A DNA stretch of 64,000 bases, taken from positions 9,133 through 73,132 of the IMG/VR virus record IMGVR_UViG_3300028800_000081; one strand, written 5' to 3'. The stretch is from a virus. Under the pieces are notes generated by a model, which was not told the origin of the DNA, did no database searches, and saw nothing but the letters and a program-made list of their open reading frames with translations. This document shows, one piece after another, positions 9,821 to 37,336 of this stretch (the first letter of the stretch is position 1; every line of letters begins with the position of its first letter). The translations under genes were made by a program, and so were the position numbers.

Positions 9821-10097
9821 GCTGCGGCGGCGTTGGAAGCCATCACACCGAGGGAAACTGTCGCGGGTGGCAACGGACGAAACGCTGGCCTTGATCCGCA
9901 AGTAGCCGAAGCCGCTGTAATGCGGCACCGTGAGGGTTATCGCTTCGAAGGCGCAAGTATCGGCTGTTAGGAAAGTCGCCTACGGCGTCGGATTGCCTCG
10001 AAGATGAAAGTCCCGCAGGCGAAGTCGGGTAGCGACAAACGGTGGAGCGGTCTAGAACGCCCTTCCGTCAGCCAGAGGTGGCGGCTGGCCCGCAGCG
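9821..10097 (+). ncRNA. tRNA-like RNA B (277 nt)
   Basis: Acceptor GCTGCGG (9821-27)/CCGCAGC (10090-96), D-like stem GCGTT/AACGC, T-like arm GCCAG/CTGGC and several internal hairpins. Confidence 0.6.
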
Positions 10098-10177
10098 TCG
10101 GGAAGTATCAGGTTGACGTAGCATGAGCGATTCGAATACTAAATCTGGTGACAGGCCGTCACCGCTAGAAATCGAAG

Positions 10178-10864
10178 TCACCCCCGAGATGATCGCCGCC
10201 GGGAGCGATGCCGTTTGGTCCCCGCTTGGCGGCTCTGACTTGCATCCTTCTTTTGACCCGGACGCTCTGGCCAAGCGGGTCTATCTGGCAATGGCTGCAG
10301 TTGCGTCCCTTTCCAAAACAAATCGACGACGCGGGCGATAGTCACGGCGTGCTTGTGCAGCGCGGCGGCACGCTCCCGATAAACGCGGAACTCTTTTAGG
10401 AGATTTGCCCTTTTTAAGGACTTCGCCAACGGATTGCCAAAAATGTCTTTCGCGACAAACTCTCCGGGGTCGCCAACCAAAAACGCAACTGGCGAGTGTG
10501 CCGCTGCATCGCGACGCGGCCCCAATTTGTCGGCGCTATCCACAAGCCAAAGAATATCGGCCCACAAAGCAGTCGCAAATTTGCTCGCGTTTGGGTTTTT
10601 TACGCCGCCCTCGTGGATTGAATGTTCCGGGTTGAACATGAAGGACGCCAACTCGCGCAACATATTCCGCTGAAACCTATCGTTCGGAATAGCGTGCCAG
10701 ATCGCGCGGCCCAAATCATGATTGCTATGGCAAACCAATGACGCGAAAAGAGAGCCAAGCCGCTCTTGAAGCTGATTCCATTCTCGAAGCAGAAACCCGA
10801 TTTCAAGCGCGTATGGCCGAAACGCCTTGTCCCATTCCTGCTCTGGCAGAATCTCGTCCGTCAC
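10178..10864 (-). CDS. IS cargo: hypothetical all-helical protein
   Basis: 228-aa ORF inside the IS; the 3' part overlaps an opposite-strand ORF at 10123-10341. Confidence 0.6.
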   Translation of the reverse strand: MTDEILPEQEWDKAFRPYALEIGFLLREWNQLQERLGSLFASLVCHSNHDLGRAIWHAIPNDRFQRNMLRELASFMFNPEHSIHEGGVKNPNASKFATALWADILWLVDSADKLGPRRDAAAHSPVAFLVGDPGEFVAKDIFGNPLAKSLKRANLLKEFRVYRERAAALHKHAVTIARVVDLFWKGTQLQPLPDRPAWPERPGQKKDASQSRQAGTKRHRSRRRSSRG

Positions 10865-10878
10865 GATACAATCCCCCC

Positions 10879-11052
10879 ATGAAGGCCAAAGAATCCGACG
10901 ATCAATTCACTCCCGCAGAGATCGCGCAACGCCGCGACACGCTGCTTTTCCAGCTTTTGAAAACGCCGCCGAAGCCACGGGCAGCCCCGAAGGCTAAGCG
11001 GAAACCGAGTCGGGCCAAGGGCGCGAGTCGCAAGGCGCGAACGGTTGCCTGA
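10879..11052 (+). CDS. IS cargo: small basic protein
   Basis: RRDTLLFQLLKTPPKP, resembling small peptides often seen in IS1595 elements. Confidence 0.45.
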   Translation: MKAKESDDQFTPAEIAQRRDTLLFQLLKTPPKPRAAPKAKRKPSRAKGASRKARTVA

Positions 11053-11089
11053 TATCCACAGATTCGCGCGGTCGAAACAGGGGGGAAAG

Positions 11090-11584
11090 ATGCGCGCATT
11101 CGGGATGATCGTCGCGGCAATTCTTGTTTTCAATGGCACGTCTGCAATCGCGCAAACGCCGCTATCTACCCAGCCTGTCGACAACGTGGATCCATGCGCG
11201 CCCGATGATGGGATGTGCTGGGCGTCGCATGATGACTCCCGGAATTACGTCAAAGCCAGGAAGGCGTTCGAACATCTTGCGGAACATGGTGACGCTATTG
11301 CCGCGCTGTGGCTCGGTGAATCGTACGATGAACCCGCATGGGTCCGCGTCCCCATAGACCATGTGCAGGCATACAAATGGTATGACATTGCCGCTGCATT
11401 GAAAGCGCGCGAAATAGCCAAGGATGGTCCTGCGCCAAACGGATCGCTGACGCCACCCGACGATAACAAAACAGAGATAAATTATCGCGATGAATGCATC
11501 CAGTATCTGAACAACGTGCAACTCATGCTCGCGCGGCACTGGTCACATGAGTGGCAATCGGAACATCCTGAGGCCATGAAATAA
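11090..11584 (+). CDS. IS cargo: secreted Sel1-like repeat protein
   Basis: Signal peptide; LAEHGDAIAALWLG and DHVQAYKWYDIAA Sel1 motifs. Confidence 0.7.
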   Translation: MRAFGMIVAAILVFNGTSAIAQTPLSTQPVDNVDPCAPDDGMCWASHDDSRNYVKARKAFEHLAEHGDAIAALWLGESYDEPAWVRVPIDHVQAYKWYDIAAALKAREIAKDGPAPNGSLTPPDDNKTEINYRDECIQYLNNVQLMLARHWSHEWQSEHPEAMK

Positions 11585-11799
11585 CGACCTATGACCTACC
11601 CGCTTCCGCAACGGCGTTCAGTGGAGTAGCATGAAAAAAATTGGGCCGAGGTGCTAGCCTCAGCCCGTTGGAATTCGATGCAGCGACGCGTCGTTATCCT
11701 CGAAAGAGGATATACGAAATGCTGTCGCACGCAACCGCTCATTTCACAGATATAAAATCCGTCGCATCGGCGGACGTAGCGCAACAAATTTTGAGCGTC

Positions 11800-12114
11800 T
11801 TACCAATCACCCCCGGCATTTCGCTGTTCCTTGATTGCGATGTCAGCGGCGAACTTCTGCCGGGCTTCGGCGTTGATCCTATAACCCTTGCTCGCGCACC
11901 ATTGCGGGAATGTACGCGGATTGATGTAGATGCGTCTGACGGCCTTACCGCCGCTCTTAAAGTCATTCTCAGCGCGCTCAAATGTGCGGACAAAATCTTT
12001 CCAGAGCGGCGGCAGTTCGTTGGCGTCTTCGCAGATAGCGAGGAAGGCGTCGTAATCTTCCTCCCGACACCACGGAAGGCCGAGGGGAATTAGCTTTGGA
12101 TCAAATGCTGGCAT
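11800..12114 (-). CDS. IS cargo: hypothetical protein
   Basis: RBS AGGAG; 104-aa ORF; 11-bp hairpin upstream at 12159-12188. Confidence 0.6.
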   Translation of the reverse strand: MPAFDPKLIPLGLPWCREEDYDAFLAICEDANELPPLWKDFVRTFERAENDFKSGGKAVRRIYINPRTFPQWCASKGYRINAEARQKFAADIAIKEQRNAGGDW

Positions 12115-12227
12115 TGTTTTGGAACTCCTAGGCGTTTGGCGATTCCTAGGATAACGGCGAAGCCCACCGGAGTCATTCGGTGGGCTTCTGCCTCTTCTGC
12201 CAGCGCAGGAACGCTTTCGCGTGCTGC

Positions 12228-13178
12228 TTAGGCGTTCGCGGTTTTGTTAGTCTGATGATATTGCAGGCGCTTGCCCTTCGCTCCCGCCAATAAGGCGTCG
12301 GCGCGCGCTGCATCCGTCATGTGACGGCCATTATATCGGAAATCGAACTCGGCAAGATAACGTGGCAAATGTTGCTCGCTGATGCTGTGGAACGTGCCGT
12401 AAACGCCGCGCTTCAGGATCGCAAAATAGCTTTCAATCGTGTTGGTATGCATGAAGCCGCCAAGGCGCACATATTCGTCCGCCGAATGATTGACCGTGCC
12501 GTGACCGGAGAACTCCGCACCGATTGACGGATAAACCGTGCTTTCGTCCGTCATCAGGTACGACTTGCGGCTTGCGTGCTTCACGATGATAGGGCGAAGC
12601 GTCTTGGAGTTCACGTTCGCAACATGGAAGGAGCGGACATGTCCGCCGTCACGCTCGACAAGGGCGAACACGGGAGACTTTTTCGGGATCGGGCCAAACG
12701 CCTTATTCTTCGCCTTGCCTCCGATATACGTTTCGTCACCTTCAACGACCTTGTTCTTACCGCCTAAAGGGCGCGGCTTCTTCGCAATCGGGCATTCCCG
12801 CAAACGATGCGCGAGGAACCAAGCCGCCTCGTAACTGATATCCAGCATCCGATGCAGTTGAAGGGCGCTAATGCCTTTCTTGCTCGCCATCATCAGGTGC
12901 GAGGCCATGACCCATTTTGTCAGCGGGATATGGCTGCGCTCCATGACGGTTCCGACCGTGACGCTGAAGGGCTTGCGGCAATCTTTGCAGTTGTAAACGC
13001 CCGGGCGGGTGCTCTTCCCGGCAAGCTTTGTGATCCGGCCCCCGAACTGGCCACAACGCGGGCACGTAGCCCCGGCGTCCTTCCACAGGACGCTTTCCAG
13101 ATGTTCCCGCGCCTTGTCCTCATCATTGAAAATGGGGTTGCGGATATCGAACGATTGCTTGGGGAATTTCTTGGACAC
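12228..13178 (-). CDS. IS1595-family DDE transposase
   Basis: Zn ribbon CPRC/CKDC, HTH, and VEGDETY, MTDE, HTNTIESYF, YLAEFDFRYN motifs. Confidence 0.95.
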   Translation of the reverse strand: MSKKFPKQSFDIRNPIFNDEDKAREHLESVLWKDAGATCPRCGQFGGRITKLAGKSTRPGVYNCKDCRKPFSVTVGTVMERSHIPLTKWVMASHLMMASKKGISALQLHRMLDISYEAAWFLAHRLRECPIAKKPRPLGGKNKVVEGDETYIGGKAKNKAFGPIPKKSPVFALVERDGGHVRSFHVANVNSKTLRPIIVKHASRKSYLMTDESTVYPSIGAEFSGHGTVNHSADEYVRLGGFMHTNTIESYFAILKRGVYGTFHSISEQHLPRYLAEFDFRYNGRHMTDAARADALLAGAKGKRLQYHQTNKTANA

Positions 13179-13309
13179 GGGCAGAACCTCGATTTGTGAG
13201 GCGATTCTAGCCCTAGTTTCGTGTTACGTCAAGCCGATACTTCCCGCAGCGTCTTTCCCGCCCCATGCGCGTTCTCTCAAAGAGGCAGTCCGCCTCACGG
13301 AGAACTTCC

Positions 13310-24210: not shown

Positions 24211-24728
24211 TCCTGGCCTTGGACCTGTCGACCGTCAAAACCGGGTTTTCCTTCGGCGGCCAGAATGACGGCGCGCCGAAGGGGGGCGTGTGGCGCATGC
24301 CAGGCGCTGGGGCCGACGTGTTCGATCGCACGCTTGGTGGCATTTACGAGTCCGTCCTGATGATGGCGCGCGCGATCAAGGCCGAGCGCGTCTGCATCGA
24401 AGCCCCGCTCCTGCTCAATGACAGCGAGCACGGGGCGGCGATCACCATGGCGCTGGTCCAGCTTACCGGGGCGGCGCGCGCGGGGGCGCACAATGCCGGG
24501 TGCCTCGTGAAATGCGTTGCCGTCTCGACGGTTCGAAAGCATTTTATCGGGATAGGCAACCTTCCGAGCAAGAAGGCAAAGCAGGCCGTCATGGACCGGT
24601 GCACGCTGTTCGGATGGCCCTACGAGGACGACAACCAAGCCGACAGCAACGCGGTCTGGAGTTGGGGTATGTCGACCTACTATCCAAAGTGGAGTCCGCG
24701 CTCGACGCCTCTCTTCGCCAAGCGATAG
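24207..24728 (+). CDS. RuvC-like Holliday junction resolvase
   Basis: ILALDLSTVKTG, VCIEAP, VRKHFIG...KQAV and DDNQADS. Confidence 0.8.
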   Translation: MILALDLSTVKTGFSFGGQNDGAPKGGVWRMPGAGADVFDRTLGGIYESVLMMARAIKAERVCIEAPLLLNDSEHGAAITMALVQLTGAARAGAHNAGCLVKCVAVSTVRKHFIGIGNLPSKKAKQAVMDRCTLFGWPYEDDNQADSNAVWSWGMSTYYPKWSPRSTPLFAKR

Positions 24729-24736
24729 GAGATCAA

Positions 24737-24792
24737 ATGCCAGCCTCCCGAAACGACCAATGGTCCGAAGAGGACAAGGAAACGCTCCGGAA
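24737..24792 (+). pseudogene. 5' fragment of a small gene (GcrA-like start) interrupted by the TnpB1 cassette
   Basis: RBS AGGAG; MPASRNDQWSEEDKETLR; continues as LRNYWP at 26094. Confidence 0.5.
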
Positions 24793-24817
24793 GAAAAGTG
24801 CGCCGTTAACTATCTGT

Positions 24818-24898
24818 TTGACATTTCTTCGCCGCCGCCCGATAAAGTTCGGGCTGATCCGACGTTTCCGCGTCGCCCAGCCCTGACCTTGACGGAGA
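24818..24898 (+). promoter_or_regulatory. tnpB1 promoter and hairpin leader
   Basis: TTGACA-N17-GATAAA; GGGCTG...CAGCCC-TGACC hairpin; GGAGA RBS. Confidence 0.65.
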
Positions 24899-24906
24899 GT
24901 AAGTCC

Positions 24907-26070
24907 GTGTCGGCTGACACCAACATAGCCACCCAATTTTTGACGTACAAGACGCGTCTGTTGCCCTCGCGCGGCCAGCACGACAAGATGCGCGCGGCCT
25001 TGGATCACACTCGCGATTTGTACAACGCAGCTCTCGCCGAGAGGATTGACTGCTATCGCAAGACTGGCAAAGGCCGAAGCTGGCCAGACCAATGTAAGGG
25101 CCTGACCGAATTACGCGCTGAGTCGGCTTGGACAATTTATCCTGTTTCTCTGCAACGATGGCCGCTGAAACAACTCGATTTGGCTTTTGCGGCATTCTTC
25201 CGGCGAGTCAAATCTCGTAACGGTCGGCCCGGCTTTCCGCGTTTTCGTGGCCGCGAATGGTTCAAGACATTCGGCTTCTCGGATCGTTTGGGCTGGGCAG
25301 TGAAAGGCTCTCGCCTTCGTATGAAGGGCATCGGGTCCGTTCGGTTGCATTTGCACCGCCCGCTGCCATCAAAACCAGTCGCCTGCAAGGTGAAGCGCGA
25401 AGGCCAAAACTGGTACGCGCTGTTGACTGTCGAAATTCCGTGCGTTGCTGAACATCGCGGCCCCGCAGTCGGGATCGACGTTGGTATCACTACGTTGGCA
25501 GCGCTTTCGACCGGTGAATTGATTGCCAATTCTAGGCCGTCCCGCCTGGCGCAGGCAGAAATTCGGCGTCGTCAACGCGCGCTCGCGAGGTGCAAGCGTG
25601 GGTCCAATCGGAGACGCAAGATTAAGGCGAGGCTGGCGGATCAGCATGCGAAAATCGCTCGCTCTCGCGAGACCTATTTGCATCAGATTACGGCCTCTAT
25701 TGCCGCGCGGTTCAGTTTGATTGCGGTAGAGAAACTGAATCTCAAGGGCCTCGCTGGCGGAATGCTGGCGAAGGAAGTTCACGATGTTGCATGGGGGCGC
25801 TTCAATCAATTTCTCCGCTACAAGGCCGCAAGAGCCGGTGGCAGTGTGATCGAAGTTGATCCAAATTACACTTCGCAGATATGTCCAGAATGCGGCGTCA
25901 TCAAGCGGAAGGAACTCTCTGAGCGGGCGCACTCGTGCCCGTGCGGTTGTGTGCTTGACCGCGATGTTGCTGCCGCAAAGGTCATTCTGCAGCGGGCCGG
26001 GAATGGTCCGTGGACACATAACGTGCCGGATGCGGCGCGTGTGTCCAGAAAGGTGCGGAGGGCTGCCTGA
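24907..26070 (+). CDS. tnpB: RNA-guided endonuclease TnpB (IS200/IS605 family), copy 1
   Basis: TYKTRLLP N-terminus, GFPRFRG, RuvC D (GIDVG), E (AVEKL), D (DRD), Zn finger CPEC/CPC. Confidence 0.95.
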   Translation: MSADTNIATQFLTYKTRLLPSRGQHDKMRAALDHTRDLYNAALAERIDCYRKTGKGRSWPDQCKGLTELRAESAWTIYPVSLQRWPLKQLDLAFAAFFRRVKSRNGRPGFPRFRGREWFKTFGFSDRLGWAVKGSRLRMKGIGSVRLHLHRPLPSKPVACKVKREGQNWYALLTVEIPCVAEHRGPAVGIDVGITTLAALSTGELIANSRPSRLAQAEIRRRQRALARCKRGSNRRRKIKARLADQHAKIARSRETYLHQITASIAARFSLIAVEKLNLKGLAGGMLAKEVHDVAWGRFNQFLRYKAARAGGSVIEVDPNYTSQICPECGVIKRKELSERAHSCPCGCVLDRDVAAAKVILQRAGNGPWTHNVPDAARVSRKVRRAA

Positions 26071-26113
26071 TGTCAGTCAACCGTATAATTCCCCTCCGGA
26101 ACTACTGGCCATT
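25992..26113 (+). ncRNA. omegaRNA 3' scaffold plus guide of TnpB1
   Basis: Stem with loop GGGAAT (25999-26004) pairs ATTCCC (26088-93); hairpin TGGACACA/TGTGTCCA followed by GAAA. Confidence 0.7.
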
Positions 26114-26128
26114 TCTCCGGCATTGACC

Positions 26129-28170
26129 ATGAGCGCCTCCCGGAAAGGTCTGAAGCGTCTCGGGCTTCGCCGGTATATCGTGGAAGGCCCGCGTCCGATG
26201 GTCATAGAGCGGGACCGCCCCTGGCGCTGGTTTGTTAGGCCGGCGTCCTATCCCAACGCGCCCGGCGGGTTCTTCTCGCAGACATTCCGGCGCCTTCGGT
26301 GCGCGCGGGCCTATGCGGAAGCGCAGGCGGGGATCGAACCATACCCCTATCTTGATATTCCTGTCTGTCTTCGCCGCTGGAAGCCGGGAGCGCGGACTTG
26401 ACGAATCTCGCGGGACAGTCATTAACTATTCGCGTCGGGGCGACGGTCTCGGCAAATGCGGCTGTCAGCCAGTCTCAGAGCGTGAATGCTGCAAAGCACT
26501 CCCTTCGAGGCTGAGACTGGCGGCAGTTCCTTGAAGGGGAAACGACATGCCTCAATCACTCAAAGACGCACTTGAACGCCTAGCGGTTGCGGGCCGGTAT
26601 CGTCCGCCTGGCGACATTCTGGCTGGCCCGCGCCGTCCAGAGCCGTTCCGCTGGTGGGTCGATAGGGCGAACTGATGGGCAAACAATCCTCGGTCAATTT
26701 CAGTGACAAGGCGAAGCGCGCGCGCGGCATTGAGCCGAGCGATGCGCTGAAGGAAAACGAGCGGCTGCATCTCGAGCTGATGGCGGCACAGCGGGCCGTG
26801 ACGGCCAAGGAGGCCCTGATGCGGGGCCGGCTCGAACGCATCCGTTCCGACGTCCGCGCGGCCGTTGAGGCTATGGACGCCGGACGTCGCGGCGAAGGCA
26901 TGCAGATCCTCCGCGCGCTTGTGCGGCCCAAGGACGGCAAGCTTTCCAGCGGTGAGCCCGCAGAGCCGGACGCGGCATGAGCGAAGATCAACCAAAATTC
27001 GAATATCGGTACATCCAGACTCGTCCGTGCGAGTGGTCCGTTTTTTTGATTTTCGACGACGAGTCGAACGTCTGGCGCCGCGTCGCCGTCTTTGTGAGTG
27101 AGGCGCGCGCGAAAAGCTACGCCGAAATCGAGCAGATGCGCGACGAGTGGGAAGGTGACAAGGGCGGCGAGGAAGGCGAACTGCTGTGCCAGATAACGGC
27201 GCGCGAACTCCCGGCCTCCCGCGTCACGCCTGATCGCATGATCCGCCGCGAGAGCATCGCGCACACCAGGATCGAACGTACCGAGGAAATCAGCCGAGCC
27301 GCTGTTGCGCTATTAACGCGCGAGGATCTCGCTGAGCTTCCCGCCGCGGTCATTGCGGAATTGAGCCCTGCCGCGCAGGCAGTTGCACTTTCACCCCCGG
27401 AACCTGCAATTGAGGCCACGCCTGTTGCTGTTAAAGGCAACACTCCAGAGCCGCCCGACGACGGCGCCGAGGAATATCCGCCCCTGCCAGAAGCGATCGA
27501 CTGCGCGACGCTTGAGCCGCTGACGGCGCTTCAGTTCAAGGTGCTTTCCGCCGTCCTCATGACGCGCGGCGCGGAAACATCCGGCGTCGCCTTGGACAAG
27601 GCGTCGGGCGTCATTGGCGCGTCGACACACACTCTTTCGCTCGCGAAAAAAGGCTACATCAGAATCCGCAAGCTTGGAAAGCATCGCTACGCCTATGACG
27701 GCCTGACGTTCGGGGCCCCGCGCGTAGGCGTGTACGATTCGAAAGCTGGGAAATGCGTCGGAAAATATGACGCGCCAGCCTCATTGCCTTCCAAAGCCGT
27801 TGAGCACCGACCTGCAGAGGTTGCAGCGGCTACCAAACCAGCGCAGAAATCAGAACCGGCGCGGGTCGCACCTATAAGTATCAGCCCCTCACCTGCAAGT
27901 AAGCCGTCTCACGCCCGCCCGACGCCTCCCAACGGCACACGCTTCCCCATCGCTGGCGACCCCGAGCATGGCCGCAGCGCGCTCGACGCCGACGATGGCC
28001 GCATCCATGTCATCTCCTACCTGACGCGCAAGGGTCACACGGTGTCGCTGGCTGAAGGTGGCTGGCGGGTGGATGGGCGGATCAAGCGCGTCGACGAAGC
28101 ACTGGAGTTGATCAACAGCTACCGCGCCAAGGCGGAACTTCCGCCCGCGCTCGCGAGCATGCTGGCATGA
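26129..28170 (+). other. Hypothetical ORFs (26129-26401, 26675-26980, 26977-28170 with possible winged HTH)
   Basis: Coupled ORFs leading into dnaB. Confidence 0.5.
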
Positions 28171-33702: not shown

Positions 33703-34496
33703 TGGGTGAGAGAACCGAAATTTCATGGGCGGACAGCACGTTCAATCCGGTCGTGGGATGCACGAAGGTGAGCGCGGCATGCGATCATTGCTACGCGGAA
33801 TCTTGGGCCAAGCGGGCCGGTCAGCCGGAGTTGTGGCAGGGCGAACGCCGCCGCACGACGCCTGAGAACTGGCGCAAGCCTCTGAAGTGGGATCGCGATG
33901 CCGCGCTGTCGGGGCGCCGACCGCGCGTGTTCTGCGCTTCGCTGTCGGATGTGTTCGACAATCAGTGGGAACCAGAATGGCGTAGAGACCTGTGGCAACT
34001 GATAGCCGAGACACCGCATCTCGATTGGCTGTTGTTGACGAAGCGGCCGCAGAACATCGCGAAAATGCTTCCGAGCGGCGACCTCGCAAAATTCCTCCCG
34101 TGGCCGTGGCCGAATGTTTGGCTCGGCACGACGGCAGAAAATCAGACTGAGGCTAACAGGCGGGTGCCGCACCTCGTCGCAGTTCCTGCGGCCGTCCGGT
34201 TCCTCTCATGCGAGCCGCTGCTCGGACCGATCAATCTCGCACTGGCGGGATTGGAGGTATGCTTGAACGACTTCGACACGCCATGCACGACGAACATTTC
34301 GTGGGTGATTTCAGGCGGGGAGAGTGGGTCGCATCATCGCCAAACGGACCCCGCGTGGATCCGGTCGTTGCGCGATCAGTGCTACGCTGTGGACATTGCG
34401 TTCCATCACAAACAGAACGGCGGCAAACGGCCGAAAGATGGCGGATGTTTGCTCGACGGTCGCGAGCACAAAGAGTTTCCGAGGATGGCAGCGTAA
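33702..34496 (+). CDS. Phage Gp37/Gp68 (DUF5131) family protein
   Basis: TEISWADSTFNPVVGCTKVSAACDHCYAE, LLLTKRP, FLSCEPLLG and WVISGGESG. Confidence 0.92.
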   Translation: MGERTEISWADSTFNPVVGCTKVSAACDHCYAESWAKRAGQPELWQGERRRTTPENWRKPLKWDRDAALSGRRPRVFCASLSDVFDNQWEPEWRRDLWQLIAETPHLDWLLLTKRPQNIAKMLPSGDLAKFLPWPWPNVWLGTTAENQTEANRRVPHLVAVPAAVRFLSCEPLLGPINLALAGLEVCLNDFDTPCTTNISWVISGGESGSHHRQTDPAWIRSLRDQCYAVDIAFHHKQNGGKRPKDGGCLLDGREHKEFPRMAA

Positions 34497-35875
34497 TGGC
34501 AAAGGTTGGAACACGAGCGGCCCCGAAGCTCCCCGCGCAGGCGAACGGCAAGCCGCTCGAGATCGTGTACCGCGATCCGAAGGAACTGAAGCCGGATGCG
34601 AGAAATTCTCGTGTCCATAGTCCCGAGCAAATTGAACAACTCAGGGCCTCGTATCGACGCTTCGGATGGACGTCGCCGGTCTTGCTTCGTCCTGACGGTT
34701 CAATCGGTGCCGGTCACGCTCGCGTGCGCATGGCGATCCTCGAAAAGATCAAATCCGTCCCCACCGTCACGATCGACCTCACCGAGAAGCAATGGCGCGC
34801 GTACGCAATTGTGGACAACCAGTCCGCACTCAATGCTTCTTACGATCTCGACATTCTCCGCACCGAACTCGACGAGCTAAACGGCGACTTCAACCTAATC
34901 GAGGAAATGGGCTTTTCACTCGACGAACTCGCGGACCTCGAAGTCCCAGGATTCACGCTCGACGAAACAAACGAGCGCGCCGAAGAGACGCCGCCTGTTC
35001 CTGCAAATCCGGTCGTGAAGCGCGGCGAGCTTTGGCTGCTCGGGAAGCATCGTGTGCTATGCGGCGACTCGACGAAGGCTGACGACGTGGCGCGGCCTCT
35101 CAACGGCGCGAAGCCGCATCTGATGGTCACCGATCCGCCGTATGGCGTGAACTACGATGCCGACTGGCGCAATCGCGCCGACAGAGCAAACGGGCGTCCC
35201 TACGGCGCTCGCGCGGTAGGGAAAGTGACGAACGACAACCGATCCGATTGGCGCGAAGCGTGGGCGCTCTGCCCTTCCGACGTAATTTATGTTTGGCACC
35301 CGGCGGGTGCCAAACAGGTGGAATTTTTCCACAGCATCGTCGATTCTGCATTCGAATTTCGAATGCAGATCATCTGGGCGAAGCAACAATTCCCAATCGG
35401 CAGAGGCGACTATCACGTCAAGCACGAACCTTGCTGGTACGCGGTGCGCAAAGGCAAGACCGCGCACTGGAACGGGAGTCGCACAGAGTCGACGCTGTGG
35501 GAGATCGACAAGCCGCACAAATCAGAAACGGGGCACTCGACACAGAAACCGATTGAGTGCATGCGCAAGCCCATCCTAAACAATTCGAAGCCCGGAGATT
35601 CCGTCTACGACCCGTTCCTCGGCTCTGGAACAACGCTCATCGCAGCCGAGATGGAGAAGCGCATCTGTCTAGGAATTGAGATCGCGCCAGAATATGTCGA
35701 GGTCATCATCCGACGCTGGGAAAAGTTCACATCCAAAACTGCGAAACGCGAAGACGGCGCAACGCTTGAAGACCTTCTCGACGCCAGAACGGCTGGTAAG
35801 GCTGTGGCTGGCATCGCGACCGGCAAGACGAAGCTCGTCCGTGGCAAGCGGCTCGCCAAGGCTCTGGCGACGTGA
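34496..35875 (+). CDS. ParB-N domain fused to N6A/N4C DNA methyltransferase
   Basis: RNSRVHSPEQI/AGHAR ParB-like domain; TDPPY, HSTQKP and DPFLGSG. Confidence 0.92.
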   Translation: MAKVGTRAAPKLPAQANGKPLEIVYRDPKELKPDARNSRVHSPEQIEQLRASYRRFGWTSPVLLRPDGSIGAGHARVRMAILEKIKSVPTVTIDLTEKQWRAYAIVDNQSALNASYDLDILRTELDELNGDFNLIEEMGFSLDELADLEVPGFTLDETNERAEETPPVPANPVVKRGELWLLGKHRVLCGDSTKADDVARPLNGAKPHLMVTDPPYGVNYDADWRNRADRANGRPYGARAVGKVTNDNRSDWREAWALCPSDVIYVWHPAGAKQVEFFHSIVDSAFEFRMQIIWAKQQFPIGRGDYHVKHEPCWYAVRKGKTAHWNGSRTESTLWEIDKPHKSETGHSTQKPIECMRKPILNNSKPGDSVYDPFLGSGTTLIAAEMEKRICLGIEIAPEYVEVIIRRWEKFTSKTAKREDGATLEDLLDARTAGKAVAGIATGKTKLVRGKRLAKALAT

Positions 35876-36148: not shown

Positions 36149-37291
36149 TTGGCTAAGCAAGCCGTACCAAAACTCATCCGAACGTACAAGTTCCGATTGC
36201 TGCCGCGCAAGGCGCAGCACGTCCGTTTGCGCGCTGCGCTTGATCACACACGAGATATTTACAACTCCGCGCTGGAGTCCCGCATCTCTGCCTACCAGAA
36301 GCTCGGCAAGACGATGGGCTATGTGCGCCAGTGTCGTGAGCTTACGGAATTGCGCGGCGATCCCGGTTACACGGAATTTCCAGTCGCTCTCCAGCGCTGG
36401 CCGTTGAAGCGGCTTGACGACGCGTTCGCCGCATTCTTCCGCCGTGTGAAAGCAGGCGATAGCCCTGGCTTTCCTCGCTTCAAGGGCCGCGACTGGTTCA
36501 AGAGCTTCGGCTTTTCTGATCGCTATGGCTGGAAGCTAGACGGCTCGCGCCTCTACATGAAAGGTATCGGTCGCGTGAAGGTGCATATGCATCGTGCGTT
36601 GCCATCCGCGCCGATTTTGTGCCAGATCAAACGCGATGCGAATGGTTGGGCTGTTCTACTCGTCTGCGAGGTAAGTGCCGAGCCATTGCAGGAAACTGGC
36701 AGAAACATCGGCATCGACCTCGGCATAACGTCGTTCATCGCCACGTCGGACGGCGAGACGGTGCCAGGGTTTCACGCGGCGAGGCGTGCGCAAGCGCAGA
36801 TGCGCAGGCGTTCGAGGGCGCTTGAAAGATGCAAGCGGGGTTCGCGCAACAGGCGGAAGGCGAAGACTTGCGTTACGGCGGCGCATGAAAGCATCGCCAA
36901 CGAGCGCCGAACGTTCCTGCATCAAGTGGCAGCGAAACTTGTGCGCGAAAATGACATGATCGCCGTCGAAAATCTAAACGTCAAAGGTCTTGCGCGCGCC
37001 ATGCTTGCCCGCGATGTCAACGATGCTGGATGGTCCACCTTCACACGCCTCCTAATCGAAAAGGCTGAGAGAGCCGGTCGGTTGGTCGTAAAAGTCGATC
37101 CTAGATACACGAGCCAAGCCTGTTCCGGCTGTGGGGTTATCGTGCCGAAGGCGCTAGGCGTCCGCGTGCACGATTGCCCAGATTGCGGATTGCGTTTGGA
37201 TCGTGACGTAAACGCAGCAAAAAATGTGCTGCACAGGGCGGTAACGCGCCCTGACGCGCTTCAATGCCGGGAGTCACTGGTATGCGCGTAG
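36149..37291 (+). CDS. tnpB: RNA-guided endonuclease TnpB, copy 2
   Basis: TYKFRLLP, GIDLG, AVENL, CSGC/CPDC and DRDVNAAKN; catalytic triad intact. Confidence 0.95.
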   Translation: MAKQAVPKLIRTYKFRLLPRKAQHVRLRAALDHTRDIYNSALESRISAYQKLGKTMGYVRQCRELTELRGDPGYTEFPVALQRWPLKRLDDAFAAFFRRVKAGDSPGFPRFKGRDWFKSFGFSDRYGWKLDGSRLYMKGIGRVKVHMHRALPSAPILCQIKRDANGWAVLLVCEVSAEPLQETGRNIGIDLGITSFIATSDGETVPGFHAARRAQAQMRRRSRALERCKRGSRNRRKAKTCVTAAHESIANERRTFLHQVAAKLVRENDMIAVENLNVKGLARAMLARDVNDAGWSTFTRLLIEKAERAGRLVVKVDPRYTSQACSGCGVIVPKALGVRVHDCPDCGLRLDRDVNAAKNVLHRAVTRPDALQCRESLVCA

Positions 37292-37336
37292 AAATGTCGG
37301 GCAACCGATTCGTTACCGTATGTCTCGCGTTGCGCT
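37234..37336 (+). ncRNA. omegaRNA 3' scaffold plus guide of TnpB2
   Basis: CAGGGCG/CGCCCTG stem with loop GTAACG pairs CGTTAC (37311-16); ACGCGC/GCGCGT hairpin then AGAAA; TCGG-GCAA-CCGA tetraloop. Confidence 0.72.

What the first reader, a model, noticed from the sequence alone, without database searches (positions are those of the whole stretch)
24737..26125. TnpB1 guide reconstitutes the interrupted gene, with an 8-bp duplication of the seed
Seen: the predicted guide begins right after the pseudoknot at 26094 (CTCCGGAACTACTGGCC). Its first 8 nt, CTCCGGAA, also occur at 24785-92 just left of the cassette, in frame in MPASRNDQWSEEDKETLR. Joining the two gives ...WSEEDKETLRNYWP, a GcrA-like helix. 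The empty allele would read GAAACG|CTCCGGAACTACTGG, predicting a TAM like AAACG. Known: Y1 TnpA insertion makes no duplication. Inference: a different insertion route, and the retained TAM+8-nt seed 25 bp upstream of the -35 box could allow non-cleaving autorepression.
Basis: partly seen in the sequence, partly recalled or inferred. Interest (0 to 1): 0.75.

Follow-up and report, generated by a model that had tools for sequence, protein, structure and literature searches.

The report
TnpB cassette with IS1595 transposon ends
The 8-base repeat flanking this phage's TnpB gene is the ordinary insertion footprint of an IS1595-type cut-and-paste transposon that carries the RNA-guided nuclease as a passenger, a design already described in outline.

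Summary
CTCCGGAA lies at 24785-92 and at 26094-101, on either side of a 1,301-bp tnpB-only element.

It is a target-site duplication. Three of seven related elements from other contigs carry their own, different 8-9-bp repeats abutting both ends. The ends are inverted repeats of IS1595-family transposons. The same 17-mer bounds elements in more than 120 viral contigs, and 44 of 65 end pairs have perfect 8-bp duplications. Many of these encode IS1595 DDE transposases.

The same phage carries an autonomous IS1595 element (10100-13245) with its own 8-bp duplication. It has no Y1 or serine transposase. TnpB1 is therefore a passenger cassette, probably moved in trans, and its left end is now degenerate.

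The covariation-supported guide-RNA scaffold ends exactly at 26093, so the duplication would be the first 8 nt of the guide.

- **Gene reconstitution:** joining the flanks restores only a 26-codon ORF. The downstream gene is independent, and nothing GcrA-like was detected.
- **TAM:** "CG" lies 5' of the left repeat in 4 of 4 cases, which is suggestive only.
- **Autorepression:** untested.

TnpB inside DDE transposons was published in 2023, and this scan has found IS1595-type cases before on other DNA.

The parts
24737..24792 (+). 5' part of a small phage ORF (ATG 24737, AGGAG 5 nt upstream), interrupted by the insertion; in the present allele it reads on into the element to a stop at 24884-24886
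   Evidence: Shine-Dalgarno read by eye
24785..24792 (.). left copy of the 8-bp target-site duplication CTCCGGAA; preceded by ...AAACG
   Evidence: family repeats
24793..24822 (+). degenerate left inverted repeat: tip GAA, 12 extra bases, then GTTAACTATCTGTTTGAC (24805-24822), 12 of 18 to the family consensus; contains TTGACA 24818-24823
   Evidence: alignment; mismatch count by eye; not found at <=5 substitutions
24907..26070 (+). tnpB1, 387 aa, GTG start; RuvC D-E-D motifs and zinc-finger cysteines present
   Evidence: Pfam OrfB_IS605, Cas12f1-like TNB, HTH_OrfB; ISDra2 TnpB 8H1J E 3.4e-43 with catalytic motifs aligned; phrog_506
25992..26093 (+). well-supported 3' part of the omegaRNA scaffold: three helices plus a pseudoknot GGGAAT (25999-26004) with ATTCCC (26088-26093); the 5' limit is not mapped and may reach about 25881
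   Evidence: 38 pairs, 98% of cells paired, 18 pairs with compensatory change, 0 of 500 shuffles as high
26076..26093 (-). right inverted repeat (IS1595 type), read on the - strand GGGAATTATACGGTTGAC; 15 of 18 to the family consensus and 15 of 18 to the resident IS1595 left repeat
26094..26101 (.). right copy of the 8-bp target-site duplication; inferred first 8 nt of the guide
26094..26113 (+). predicted guide (16-20 nt of right flank); length and 3' end are inferred, not mapped
   Evidence: position directly 3' of the scaffold; guide length from published TnpB work (passages)
26102..26126 (+). remainder of the interrupted small ORF: eight codons and TGA 26124-26126
   Evidence: read by eye
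26129..26401 (+). independent 90-aa gene of unknown function; not part of the interrupted ORF
10100..13245 (.). autonomous IS1595-family element in the same phage: 24-bp inverted repeats (21 of 24), 8-bp duplication GCAGCGTC at 10092-10099 and 13246-13253, plus cargo ORFs of unknown function
12228..13178 (-). IS1595-family DDE transposase, 316 aa; candidate mobiliser in trans
   Evidence: PF12762 E 7.5e-36 and PF12760 E 6.9e-08

Best explanation
Window 24793-26093 is a 1,301-bp non-autonomous member of the IS1595 family of DDE transposons. It keeps the family's inverted ends but carries tnpB and its omegaRNA in place of a transposase. An IS1595 transposase supplied in trans inserted it into a short ORF between a RuvC-like resolvase gene and a 90-aa gene. 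One such transposase is encoded 12 kb away in the same phage. Staggered DDE cutting and repair duplicated 8 bp of target (CTCCGGAA).

The right inverted repeat doubles as the 3' end of the omegaRNA scaffold, and its tip forms the pseudoknot. The transcript therefore runs into the right flank, and the duplicated 8 nt are the TAM-proximal start of the guide. The guide matches the uninterrupted allele.

Inferred: TnpB1, whose catalytic motifs are intact, cuts empty alleles in co-infecting genomes so that recombination copies the cassette in (homing). The occupied allele would be spared, because the right junction has TTCCC where the TAM should be and the left junction matches only 8 nt.

Shown: the ends, the duplication, the family, the resident transposase and the RNA structure. 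Inferred: trans-mobilisation, guide start and length, TAM and homing. The window's left end is degenerate, so this copy is probably no longer mobile.
For: 1. Repeats abutting both ends: window CTCCGGAA, L004 CTCCCTAA(G), L006 AACGAAAG(G), L016 AAATGATA. That is 4 of 8 elements with both ends on the contig.
2. Inverted ends.
I found 65 inward-facing end pairs; 44 have perfect 8-bp duplications and 2 more have 1-2 mismatches. Sixty of the 120 loci have a tblastn hit to an IS1595 transposase.
4. Three of 3 tested ORFs from such elements are DDE_Tnp_IS1595 plus Zn_ribbon_IS1595.
5. A Pfam-profile search, which does not depend on the end motif, found an IS1595 transposase in the same phage. Its element has related inverted repeats and an 8-bp duplication.
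6. No Y1 transposase and no serine recombinase in the 73-kb phage record, rated 100% complete by CheckV.
7. Family homology ends at 26093. The RNA structure shows covariation.
8. TnpB1 aligns with ISDra2 TnpB with its catalytic motifs kept.
9. CG lies 5' of the left repeat in 4 of 4 elements. It does so in 2 of 41 other IS1595-type elements, and lies 3' of the right repeat in 3 of 41 of them. By eye, it lies 3' of the right repeat in 0 of 4 TnpB elements. Background CG frequency is 0.10-0.12.
10. Altae-Tran et al. 2023 report inverted terminal repeats for DDE-associated TnpBs, and solo TnpBs with the same ends that are probably moved in trans (passages).
Against: - The window's left inverted repeat is poor (12 of 18) and sits 12 bp inside the repeat copy. 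The window's own duplication is therefore less clean than in L004, L006 and L016.
- Two relatives with good ends have no duplication (L013, which is the same locus as L017, and L015). Two more are ambiguous. In L012 the 8-mer lies 57 bp upstream, in a segment that resembles the right flank. L014 has a truncated left end.
- No empty allele was found: none among related phages, and no joint in contigs of 4 metagenome runs.
- The resident transposase's repeats differ from TnpB1's right repeat at 3 of 18 positions, and cross-mobilisation is untested.
- L004's phage (92% complete) has no IS1595 transposase.
- TAM, guide length and nuclease activity are not measured. The TAM inference rests on n = 4.
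- No Rfam family matches.
Confidence: 0.82

Rival explanations
1. First reader's added function. The TAM plus 8-nt seed left at the left junction is a non-cleaving binding site. TnpB1-omegaRNA sits on it and represses the cassette's own promoter, or blocks transposase access to the left repeat.
For: Every insertion of such an element next to a TAM creates this half-site on the left repeat. In typical members the repeat holds a TTGAC at positions 14-18, followed about 17 bp later by a -10-like hexamer (by eye). TnpB relatives bind DNA with 9-11-nt guides (TldR, passages). A TnpB with a 10-nt guide engages DNA without cutting (abstract).
Against: Eight nt is shorter than any guide shown to work. 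In the window the site ends 25 bp upstream of TTGACA, and no promoter passes the scan. The half-site follows automatically from DDE insertion, so its presence is not evidence of selection. TnpB1 keeps its catalytic triad, unlike dedicated repressors.
Confidence: 0.08
2. Fanzor-like solution. The 3' duplication is not part of the guide but a spacer or scaffold extension. The guide then starts at 26102, and the 5' duplication serves as, or contains, the TAM.
For: In eukaryotic Fanzor elements with inverted ends, the 3' duplication is built into the scaffold and the 5' duplication is read as part of the TAM (passages).
Against: Here the duplications differ completely between copies (CTCCGGAA, CTCCCTAA, AACGAAAG, AAATGATA), so they can be neither a fixed scaffold part nor a fixed TAM. 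Their 3' ends share no motif. The conserved signal (CG) lies 5' of the duplication. The pseudoknot ends at the repeat tip, as in IS200/IS605 omegaRNAs.
Confidence: 0.1
3. Ordinary IS200/IS605 (IS1341-type) tnpB-only element, inserted by a Y1 transposase; the 8-bp repeat is chance.
For: TnpB1's closest solved relative is ISDra2 TnpB of an IS200/IS605 element. A second tnpB in the window (36149-37291) shows no inverted ends and no duplication.
Against: Four independent elements have different repeats abutting both ends. The ends are inverted repeats shared with IS1595 transposase-bearing elements. There is no Y1 transposase in the phage.
Confidence: 0.02

Closest known systems
DDE-transposase-associated TnpB branches and solo TnpBs with the same ends (Altae-Tran et al. 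2023, PNAS, PMC10691335; passages read)
   Same: tnpB lies inside inverted terminal repeats. The tnpB 3' end is within 250 bp of the transposon end (here 23 bp). Solo copies share ends with transposase-bearing elements, which implies mobilisation in trans.
   Different: The DDE families named in the text I could read are IS630 (that paper) and ISL2, IS630 and IS1031 (2026 review, PMC13565253). IS1595 is not named, and the paper's supplements, which may list it, were closed. That main text does not mention target duplications or their relation to guide and TAM.
IS1595 family insertion sequences (Pfam DDE_Tnp_IS1595 / ISXO2-like; that an 8-bp duplication is the family's rule is recalled, not looked up)
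   Same: Inverted ends GGGAATTATATACTTGAC-like. 8-bp duplications (44 of 65 pairs perfect). An autonomous member sits in the same phage.
   Different: This copy has no transposase. It carries tnpB plus omegaRNA, and its left repeat is degenerate with 12 extra bases.
Fanzor1 and Fanzor2* in eukaryotic transposons with inverted ends and target duplications (Yoon et al. 2023, PMC10711439; review PMC13565253; passages read)
   Same: A TnpB-family nuclease rides a cut-and-paste transposon, and the inverted repeat forms part of the guide-RNA scaffold.
   Different: In those elements the 3' duplication is absorbed into the scaffold, the 5' duplication is read as TAM, and Fanzor1 has lost the pseudoknot. 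Here the duplication is variable, the pseudoknot is kept and uses the repeat tip, and the duplication most likely starts the guide.
IS200/IS605 family, IS1341 group (tnpB only)
   Same: TnpB protein family. The omegaRNA overlaps the tnpB 3' end, with the guide taken from the right flank.
   Different: That family has no inverted repeats and no target duplication, and moves by a Y1 transposase (review passage). All three points fail here.
TldR and short-guide TnpB binding (Wiegand et al. preprint 10.1101/2023.11.30.569447; Oh et al. 2026, PMC13507860)
   Same: Partial or short complementarity next to a TAM can give binding without cutting.
   Different: Those cases use guides of 9-16 nt, and TldRs are nuclease-dead. 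TnpB1 is predicted to be active and the half-site has 8 nt.

Membership tests
IS1595 family (as a non-autonomous derivative) | terminal inverted repeats of the family | tested here: met
   The right repeat matches the family 17-mer with 2 mismatches. The same 17-mer bounds IS1595 transposase-bearing elements. The left repeat is degenerate (12 of 18).
IS1595 family (as a non-autonomous derivative) | 8-bp target-site duplication | tested here: met
   Window 8 bp. L004, L006 and L016 have 8-9 bp. 44 of 65 end pairs in other elements are perfect.
IS1595 family (as a non-autonomous derivative) | DDE transposase with N-terminal zinc ribbon, in cis or available in trans | tested here: met
   Absent from the cassette. 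Present in the same phage at 12228-13178. Actual mobilisation cannot be tested here.
IS200/IS605 family (IS1341 group) | no target-site duplication, no inverted repeats, Y1 HUH transposase as the mobilising enzyme | tested here: not met
   Duplication and inverted repeats are present. There is no Y1_Tnp match in the phage.
IS607 family | serine recombinase TnpA; no duplication and no inverted repeats | tested here: not met
   No Resolvase-domain match in the phage. Duplication and inverted repeats are present.
TnpB / OMEGA RNA-guided nuclease | RuvC-like D-E-D triad, zinc finger, OrfB_IS605 and TNB domains | tested here: met
TnpB / OMEGA RNA-guided nuclease | structured omegaRNA overlapping the tnpB 3' end and ending at the element boundary | tested here: met
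   Covariation in 18 of 38 pairs and a pseudoknot paired in 8 of 8 sequences. The boundary is at 26093. No Rfam model matches.
TnpB / OMEGA RNA-guided nuclease | TAM-dependent, guide-dependent DNA cleavage | not testable with these tools
   Only indirect evidence: CG 5' of the duplication in 4 of 4 elements.
DDE-associated TnpB (Altae-Tran 2023) | inverted terminal repeats, and tnpB 3' end within 250 bp of the end | tested here: met
   23 bp from the stop codon to the element end. Inverted repeats. Placement in their tree branches DDE-1 to DDE-6 was not tested.
GcrA (for the interrupted ORF) | match to the GcrA profile PF07750 | tested here: not met
   No Pfam hit for the 49-aa ORF. No PF07750 match in the phage at E <= 10. 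An 18-26-aa piece is too short for a fair test.
TldR-type RNA-guided repressor | loss of the RuvC catalytic residues | tested here: not met
   The catalytic motifs are kept.

The most novel reading that the evidence does not exclude
In IS1595-borne TnpB cassettes the variable 8-bp target duplication is the TAM-proximal seed of the guide. Insertions then persist and spread by homing only where the duplicated 8 bp happen to follow a short TAM ending in CG. Every such insertion also leaves a TAM plus 8-nt half-site directly on the left inverted repeat and promoter. TnpB-omegaRNA would bind that half-site without cutting, to throttle tnpB expression or to block transposase access. This would be a prokaryotic answer to the duplication problem, and a different one from the answer Fanzors use.
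Probability: 0.12. Interest if true: 0.6.

Novelty: new member of a known kind. Interest (0 to 1): 0.38.

Why it matters
The finding corrects the annotation. This is not an IS605-type element with an odd duplication. It is a tnpB cargo cassette of a DDE (IS1595) transposon, sitting in a phage that also carries the matching kind of transposase.

It also gives a natural, compact case for asking how an RNA-guided nuclease copes with a transposase that duplicates 8 variable bases. Here the duplication seems to become the start of the guide, and the TAM would then have to lie by chance in the left flank. That question can be tested directly with a TAM screen and RNA end mapping.

The general design (TnpB within DDE transposons, solo copies moved in trans) is published, and this scan has met IS1595-type examples before. 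The surprise for a specialist is therefore modest.

Tried and rejected
- **Rfam:** no family at gathering score in the whole window.
- **Empty allele, related phages:** the RuvC-like protein found no relatives in viral contigs. Relatives of the downstream gene have other neighbours. L025 has a RuvC-like gene directly followed by the homologue with no small ORF between, so none is a true empty site.
- **Empty allele, reads:** four rhizosphere metagenome runs, held as low-depth Logan contigs, bridge the left junction (3 runs) and the right junction (1 run) and show no joint. Contigs drop rare variants, so this says nothing about absence.
- **More family members:**
  - The genome-contig scan gave one close fragment (L011) and distant relatives only.
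  - A sample of 401 genomes of L011's class gave 2 hits, at 37-43% identity.
  - A right-end DNA pattern found only known loci.
- **Promoter:** the scan found none in 24600-26300.
- **Downstream ORF as C-terminal half of the interrupted gene:** rejected. All five homologues found start at its own Met, and the reading frames differ.
- **Y1 or serine recombinase route:** rejected.
- **L012 and L014 as extra duplication cases:** set aside as ambiguous. An 8-mer anywhere in my 550-nt search space is not rare, and L012's flank resembles a nearby coding segment.
- **TnpB2:** no inverted ends and no duplication found.
- **Literature:** the IS1595 + TnpB search returned 9 papers. None links the two by title or abstract; I saw the listing only.
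- **Earlier scan notes:** look-ups by place and by sequence found nothing for this genome.

Full report
**The observation**

The octamer CTCCGGAA is at 24785-24792 and again at 26094-26101. The left copy is in frame in an ORF that starts at ATG 24737. That start lies 5 nt after an AGGAG that overlaps the stop of the preceding gene (by eye).

Between the copies lies a tnpB gene (24907-26070, 387 aa). It has the OrfB_IS605, Cas12f1-like TNB and HTH_OrfB domains. It matches ISDra2 TnpB with E 3.4e-43, and the GIDVG, AVEKL and LDRD catalytic motifs are aligned.

The octamer occurs 5 times in the window on both strands, against a shuffle mean of 2.9. A copy that close to the element's left end is unlikely by chance, though one case alone would not prove a duplication.

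**Is the repeat a duplication?**

I collected relatives of TnpB1:
- 3 in viral contigs;
- 11 in metagenome contigs;
- one close fragment and four distant relatives in genome contigs.

Seven distinct relatives have both ends on their contig: L004, L006, L012, L013 (same locus as L017), L014, L015 and L016. Their flanks read as follows.

| Locus | Flanking repeat |
|---|---|
| L004 | CTCCCTAA(G), abutting both ends |
| L006 | AACGAAAG(G), abutting both ends |
| L016 | AAATGATA, abutting both ends |
| L013, L015 | none |
| L012 | ambiguous: an 8-mer 57 bp upstream, in a segment that resembles the right flank |
| L014 | ambiguous: the left end is truncated |

With the window, 4 of 8 elements carry a clean repeat, each of a different sequence. 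The repeats therefore come from the target. They are target-site duplications.

**Whose ends are these?**

The left ends read GG(G)AATTATATA(C/G)TTGA. The right ends are the inverse of that.

In those loci I found 65 inward-facing end pairs, 253-3,509 bp apart. Of these, 44 have perfect 8-bp duplications and 2 more have 1-2 mismatches. Sixty of the 120 loci have a tblastn hit (E < 1e-10) to the transposase ORF of one such element. Three of 3 such ORFs tested are DDE_Tnp_IS1595 plus Zn_ribbon_IS1595, with E from 5e-38 to 7e-47.

Two further loci among the 120 hold distant tnpB genes (34-37% identity). One of them, L111, has an 8-bp duplication.

The cassette's ends are therefore those of the IS1595 family of DDE transposons.

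**A partner in the same phage**

A profile search of the whole 73-kb virus record, which does not depend on the end motif, found one IS1595 transposase. In window coordinates it is 12228-13178 on the minus strand, 316 aa.

Its element runs from 10100 to 13245:
- inverted repeats GGGAAGTATCAGGTTGACGTAGCA and its partner, 21 of 24 alike by eye;
- an 8-bp duplication GCAGCGTC on both sides.

TnpB1's right repeat matches this element's left repeat at 15 of 18 positions (by eye).

The record has no Y1 transposase and no serine recombinase. L006's phage also has an IS1595 transposase. L004's phage, 92% complete, does not.

**The window's own copy**

The right repeat (26076-26093) is good: 2 mismatches to the 17-mer. 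The left end is degenerate. After the duplication come GAA, 12 extra bases, and then GTTAACTATCTGTTTGAC, which matches the consensus at 12 of 18 positions. This copy is probably no longer mobile, although tnpB and the RNA look intact.

**The guide RNA**

In an alignment of eight family right ends, conservation stops at window 26093.

I tested a structure of three helices plus a pseudoknot:
- 98% of cells are paired;
- 18 of 38 pairs show compensatory change;
- 0 of 500 shuffles reach the observed values;
- slid controls give 31-46% paired.

The pseudoknot pairs GGGAAT (25999-26004) with the tip of the right repeat, ATTCCC (26088-26093). It is paired in 8 of 8 sequences. One of its pairs switches from A-U to U-A in 3 of 8 sequences.

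It follows by inference from how IS200/IS605 omegaRNAs work that the guide starts with the 8 duplicated bases. No Rfam family matches.

**TAM**

The two bases 5' of the left duplication are CG in 4 of 4 elements: GAAACG, CCCCCG, TTGACG, CGACG. Three controls bear on this.
- Among 41 other distinct IS1595-type elements with perfect duplications, CG holds that place in 2. It holds the mirror place in 3.
- In the four TnpB elements the mirror place is never CG (by eye).
- CG frequency in these loci is 0.10-0.12.

By my arithmetic the chance is about 1e-4 before allowing for the motifs and positions I could have noticed.

The asymmetry points to a constraint tied to tnpB, not to the transposase. 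It fits a short TAM next to the duplication. With n = 4 this is suggestive only.

**The interrupted gene**

Removing one repeat copy gives a 26-codon ORF: 18 codons before the element, then eight more, then TGA at 26124-26126. That stop lies 2 nt before ATG 26129 of the next gene.

The next gene (90 aa) is independent. All five homologues found (69-91 aa) start at the same Met. In relatives its start overlaps the stop of whatever gene precedes it (by eye). This fits translational coupling and makes the restored small ORF plausible.

Nothing supports the 'GcrA-like' label. There is no Pfam hit, and no GcrA-profile match anywhere in the phage at E <= 10. The piece is too short for a fair test.

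**Autorepression**

This was not tested. Four points count against it.
- The half-site follows automatically from DDE insertion.
- It has 8 nt, whereas published binding without cutting used 9-11 nt (TldR preprint, passages) or 10 nt (abstract).
- It ends 25 bp upstream of TTGACA.
- No promoter passes the simple scan.

In typical family members the half-site abuts the repeat that holds the TTGAC, so the idea is more attractive there than in this copy.

**What is known**

- Altae-Tran et al. 2023 (passages) describe six DDE-associated TnpB branches with inverted terminal repeats. They also describe solo TnpBs with the same ends, probably moved in trans. Their main text names only IS630.
- A 2026 review (section 6.2 read) lists ISL2, IS630 and IS1031.
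- IS1595 is named in neither. A search for IS1595 with TnpB gave 9 papers, none linking them by title or abstract (listing only).
- Fanzor work (passages) shows a different handling of duplications.
- Earlier notes of this scan report tnpB cassettes with IS1595-type ends in other genomes. I used them as a lead and tested the claim on my own loci.

**Verdict**

The mechanism is ordinary DDE transposition of a passenger cassette. The gene-reconstitution and GcrA readings are mostly not borne out. The TAM reading is weakly supported, and autorepression remains speculation.

Noticed in passing
window 36149-37291: Second tnpB (380 aa, 55% identical to TnpB1), downstream of a large ORF (34208-35875) that I did not check with any tool. 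I found no IS1595-type inverted ends and no flanking duplication. By eye, its right end has GGTAAC (about 37240) facing GTTACC (37313-37318), a possible pseudoknot like that of TnpB1.
   Followed up: partly
window 10100-13245: The resident IS1595 element is 3.1 kb and carries several ORFs besides the transposase (for example 10178-10864 on the minus strand, 11045-11584, and 11800-12114 on the minus strand). The three tested have no Pfam match; 10178-10864 was not tested.
   Followed up: partly
loci L029-L148 (viral contigs): IS1595-type elements with the same 17-mer ends are very common in viral contigs (more than 120 loci; the scan hit its limit). They range from 253-500-bp transposase-less miniatures to elements of 2-3.5 kb. 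By eye, their extra ORFs include DNA-methyltransferase-like sequences; this was not checked with a tool.
   Followed up: partly
L018 about 1-30 and 1230-1260; L019, L021 left ends: TnpB relatives at 57-60% identity have a different pair of inverted ends (GGTGGTGC..CAGTTTGAA). This wider TnpB clade may ride more than one kind of inverted-repeat transposon. Their flanks are cut off by contig ends.
   Followed up: no
L012 155-230 and 1511-1532: The right flank of this element resembles a segment 57 bp upstream of its left end. By eye, that segment encodes the hydrophobic tail of a PEP-CTERM-like protein. It could be a longer diverged duplication or a paralogous target. Unexplained.
   Followed up: no
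L014 1460-1500 and 2690-2705: This copy lacks about 110 bp of the left end, including the inverted repeat. Even so, an 8-mer (CTCGCGAC) that also follows its right end abuts the truncation point. This may be chance or an aberrant transposition.
   Followed up: no
window 26129-26401; L024, L026-L028: The 90-aa gene family beginning MSASRKGL has no known function. In relatives its ATG overlaps the stop of the upstream gene (ATGA), which suggests translational coupling.
   Followed up: partly
G001 contig 28, 29217-32484 (L149, L151): An alphaproteobacterial MAG holds a 3,268-bp IS1595-type element with the same ends and an 8-bp duplication TTTTGATT. Its transposase reading frame has 2 TGA stops. 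The same MAG has a truncated copy of the TnpB1-type cassette (L011/L150).
   Followed up: partly
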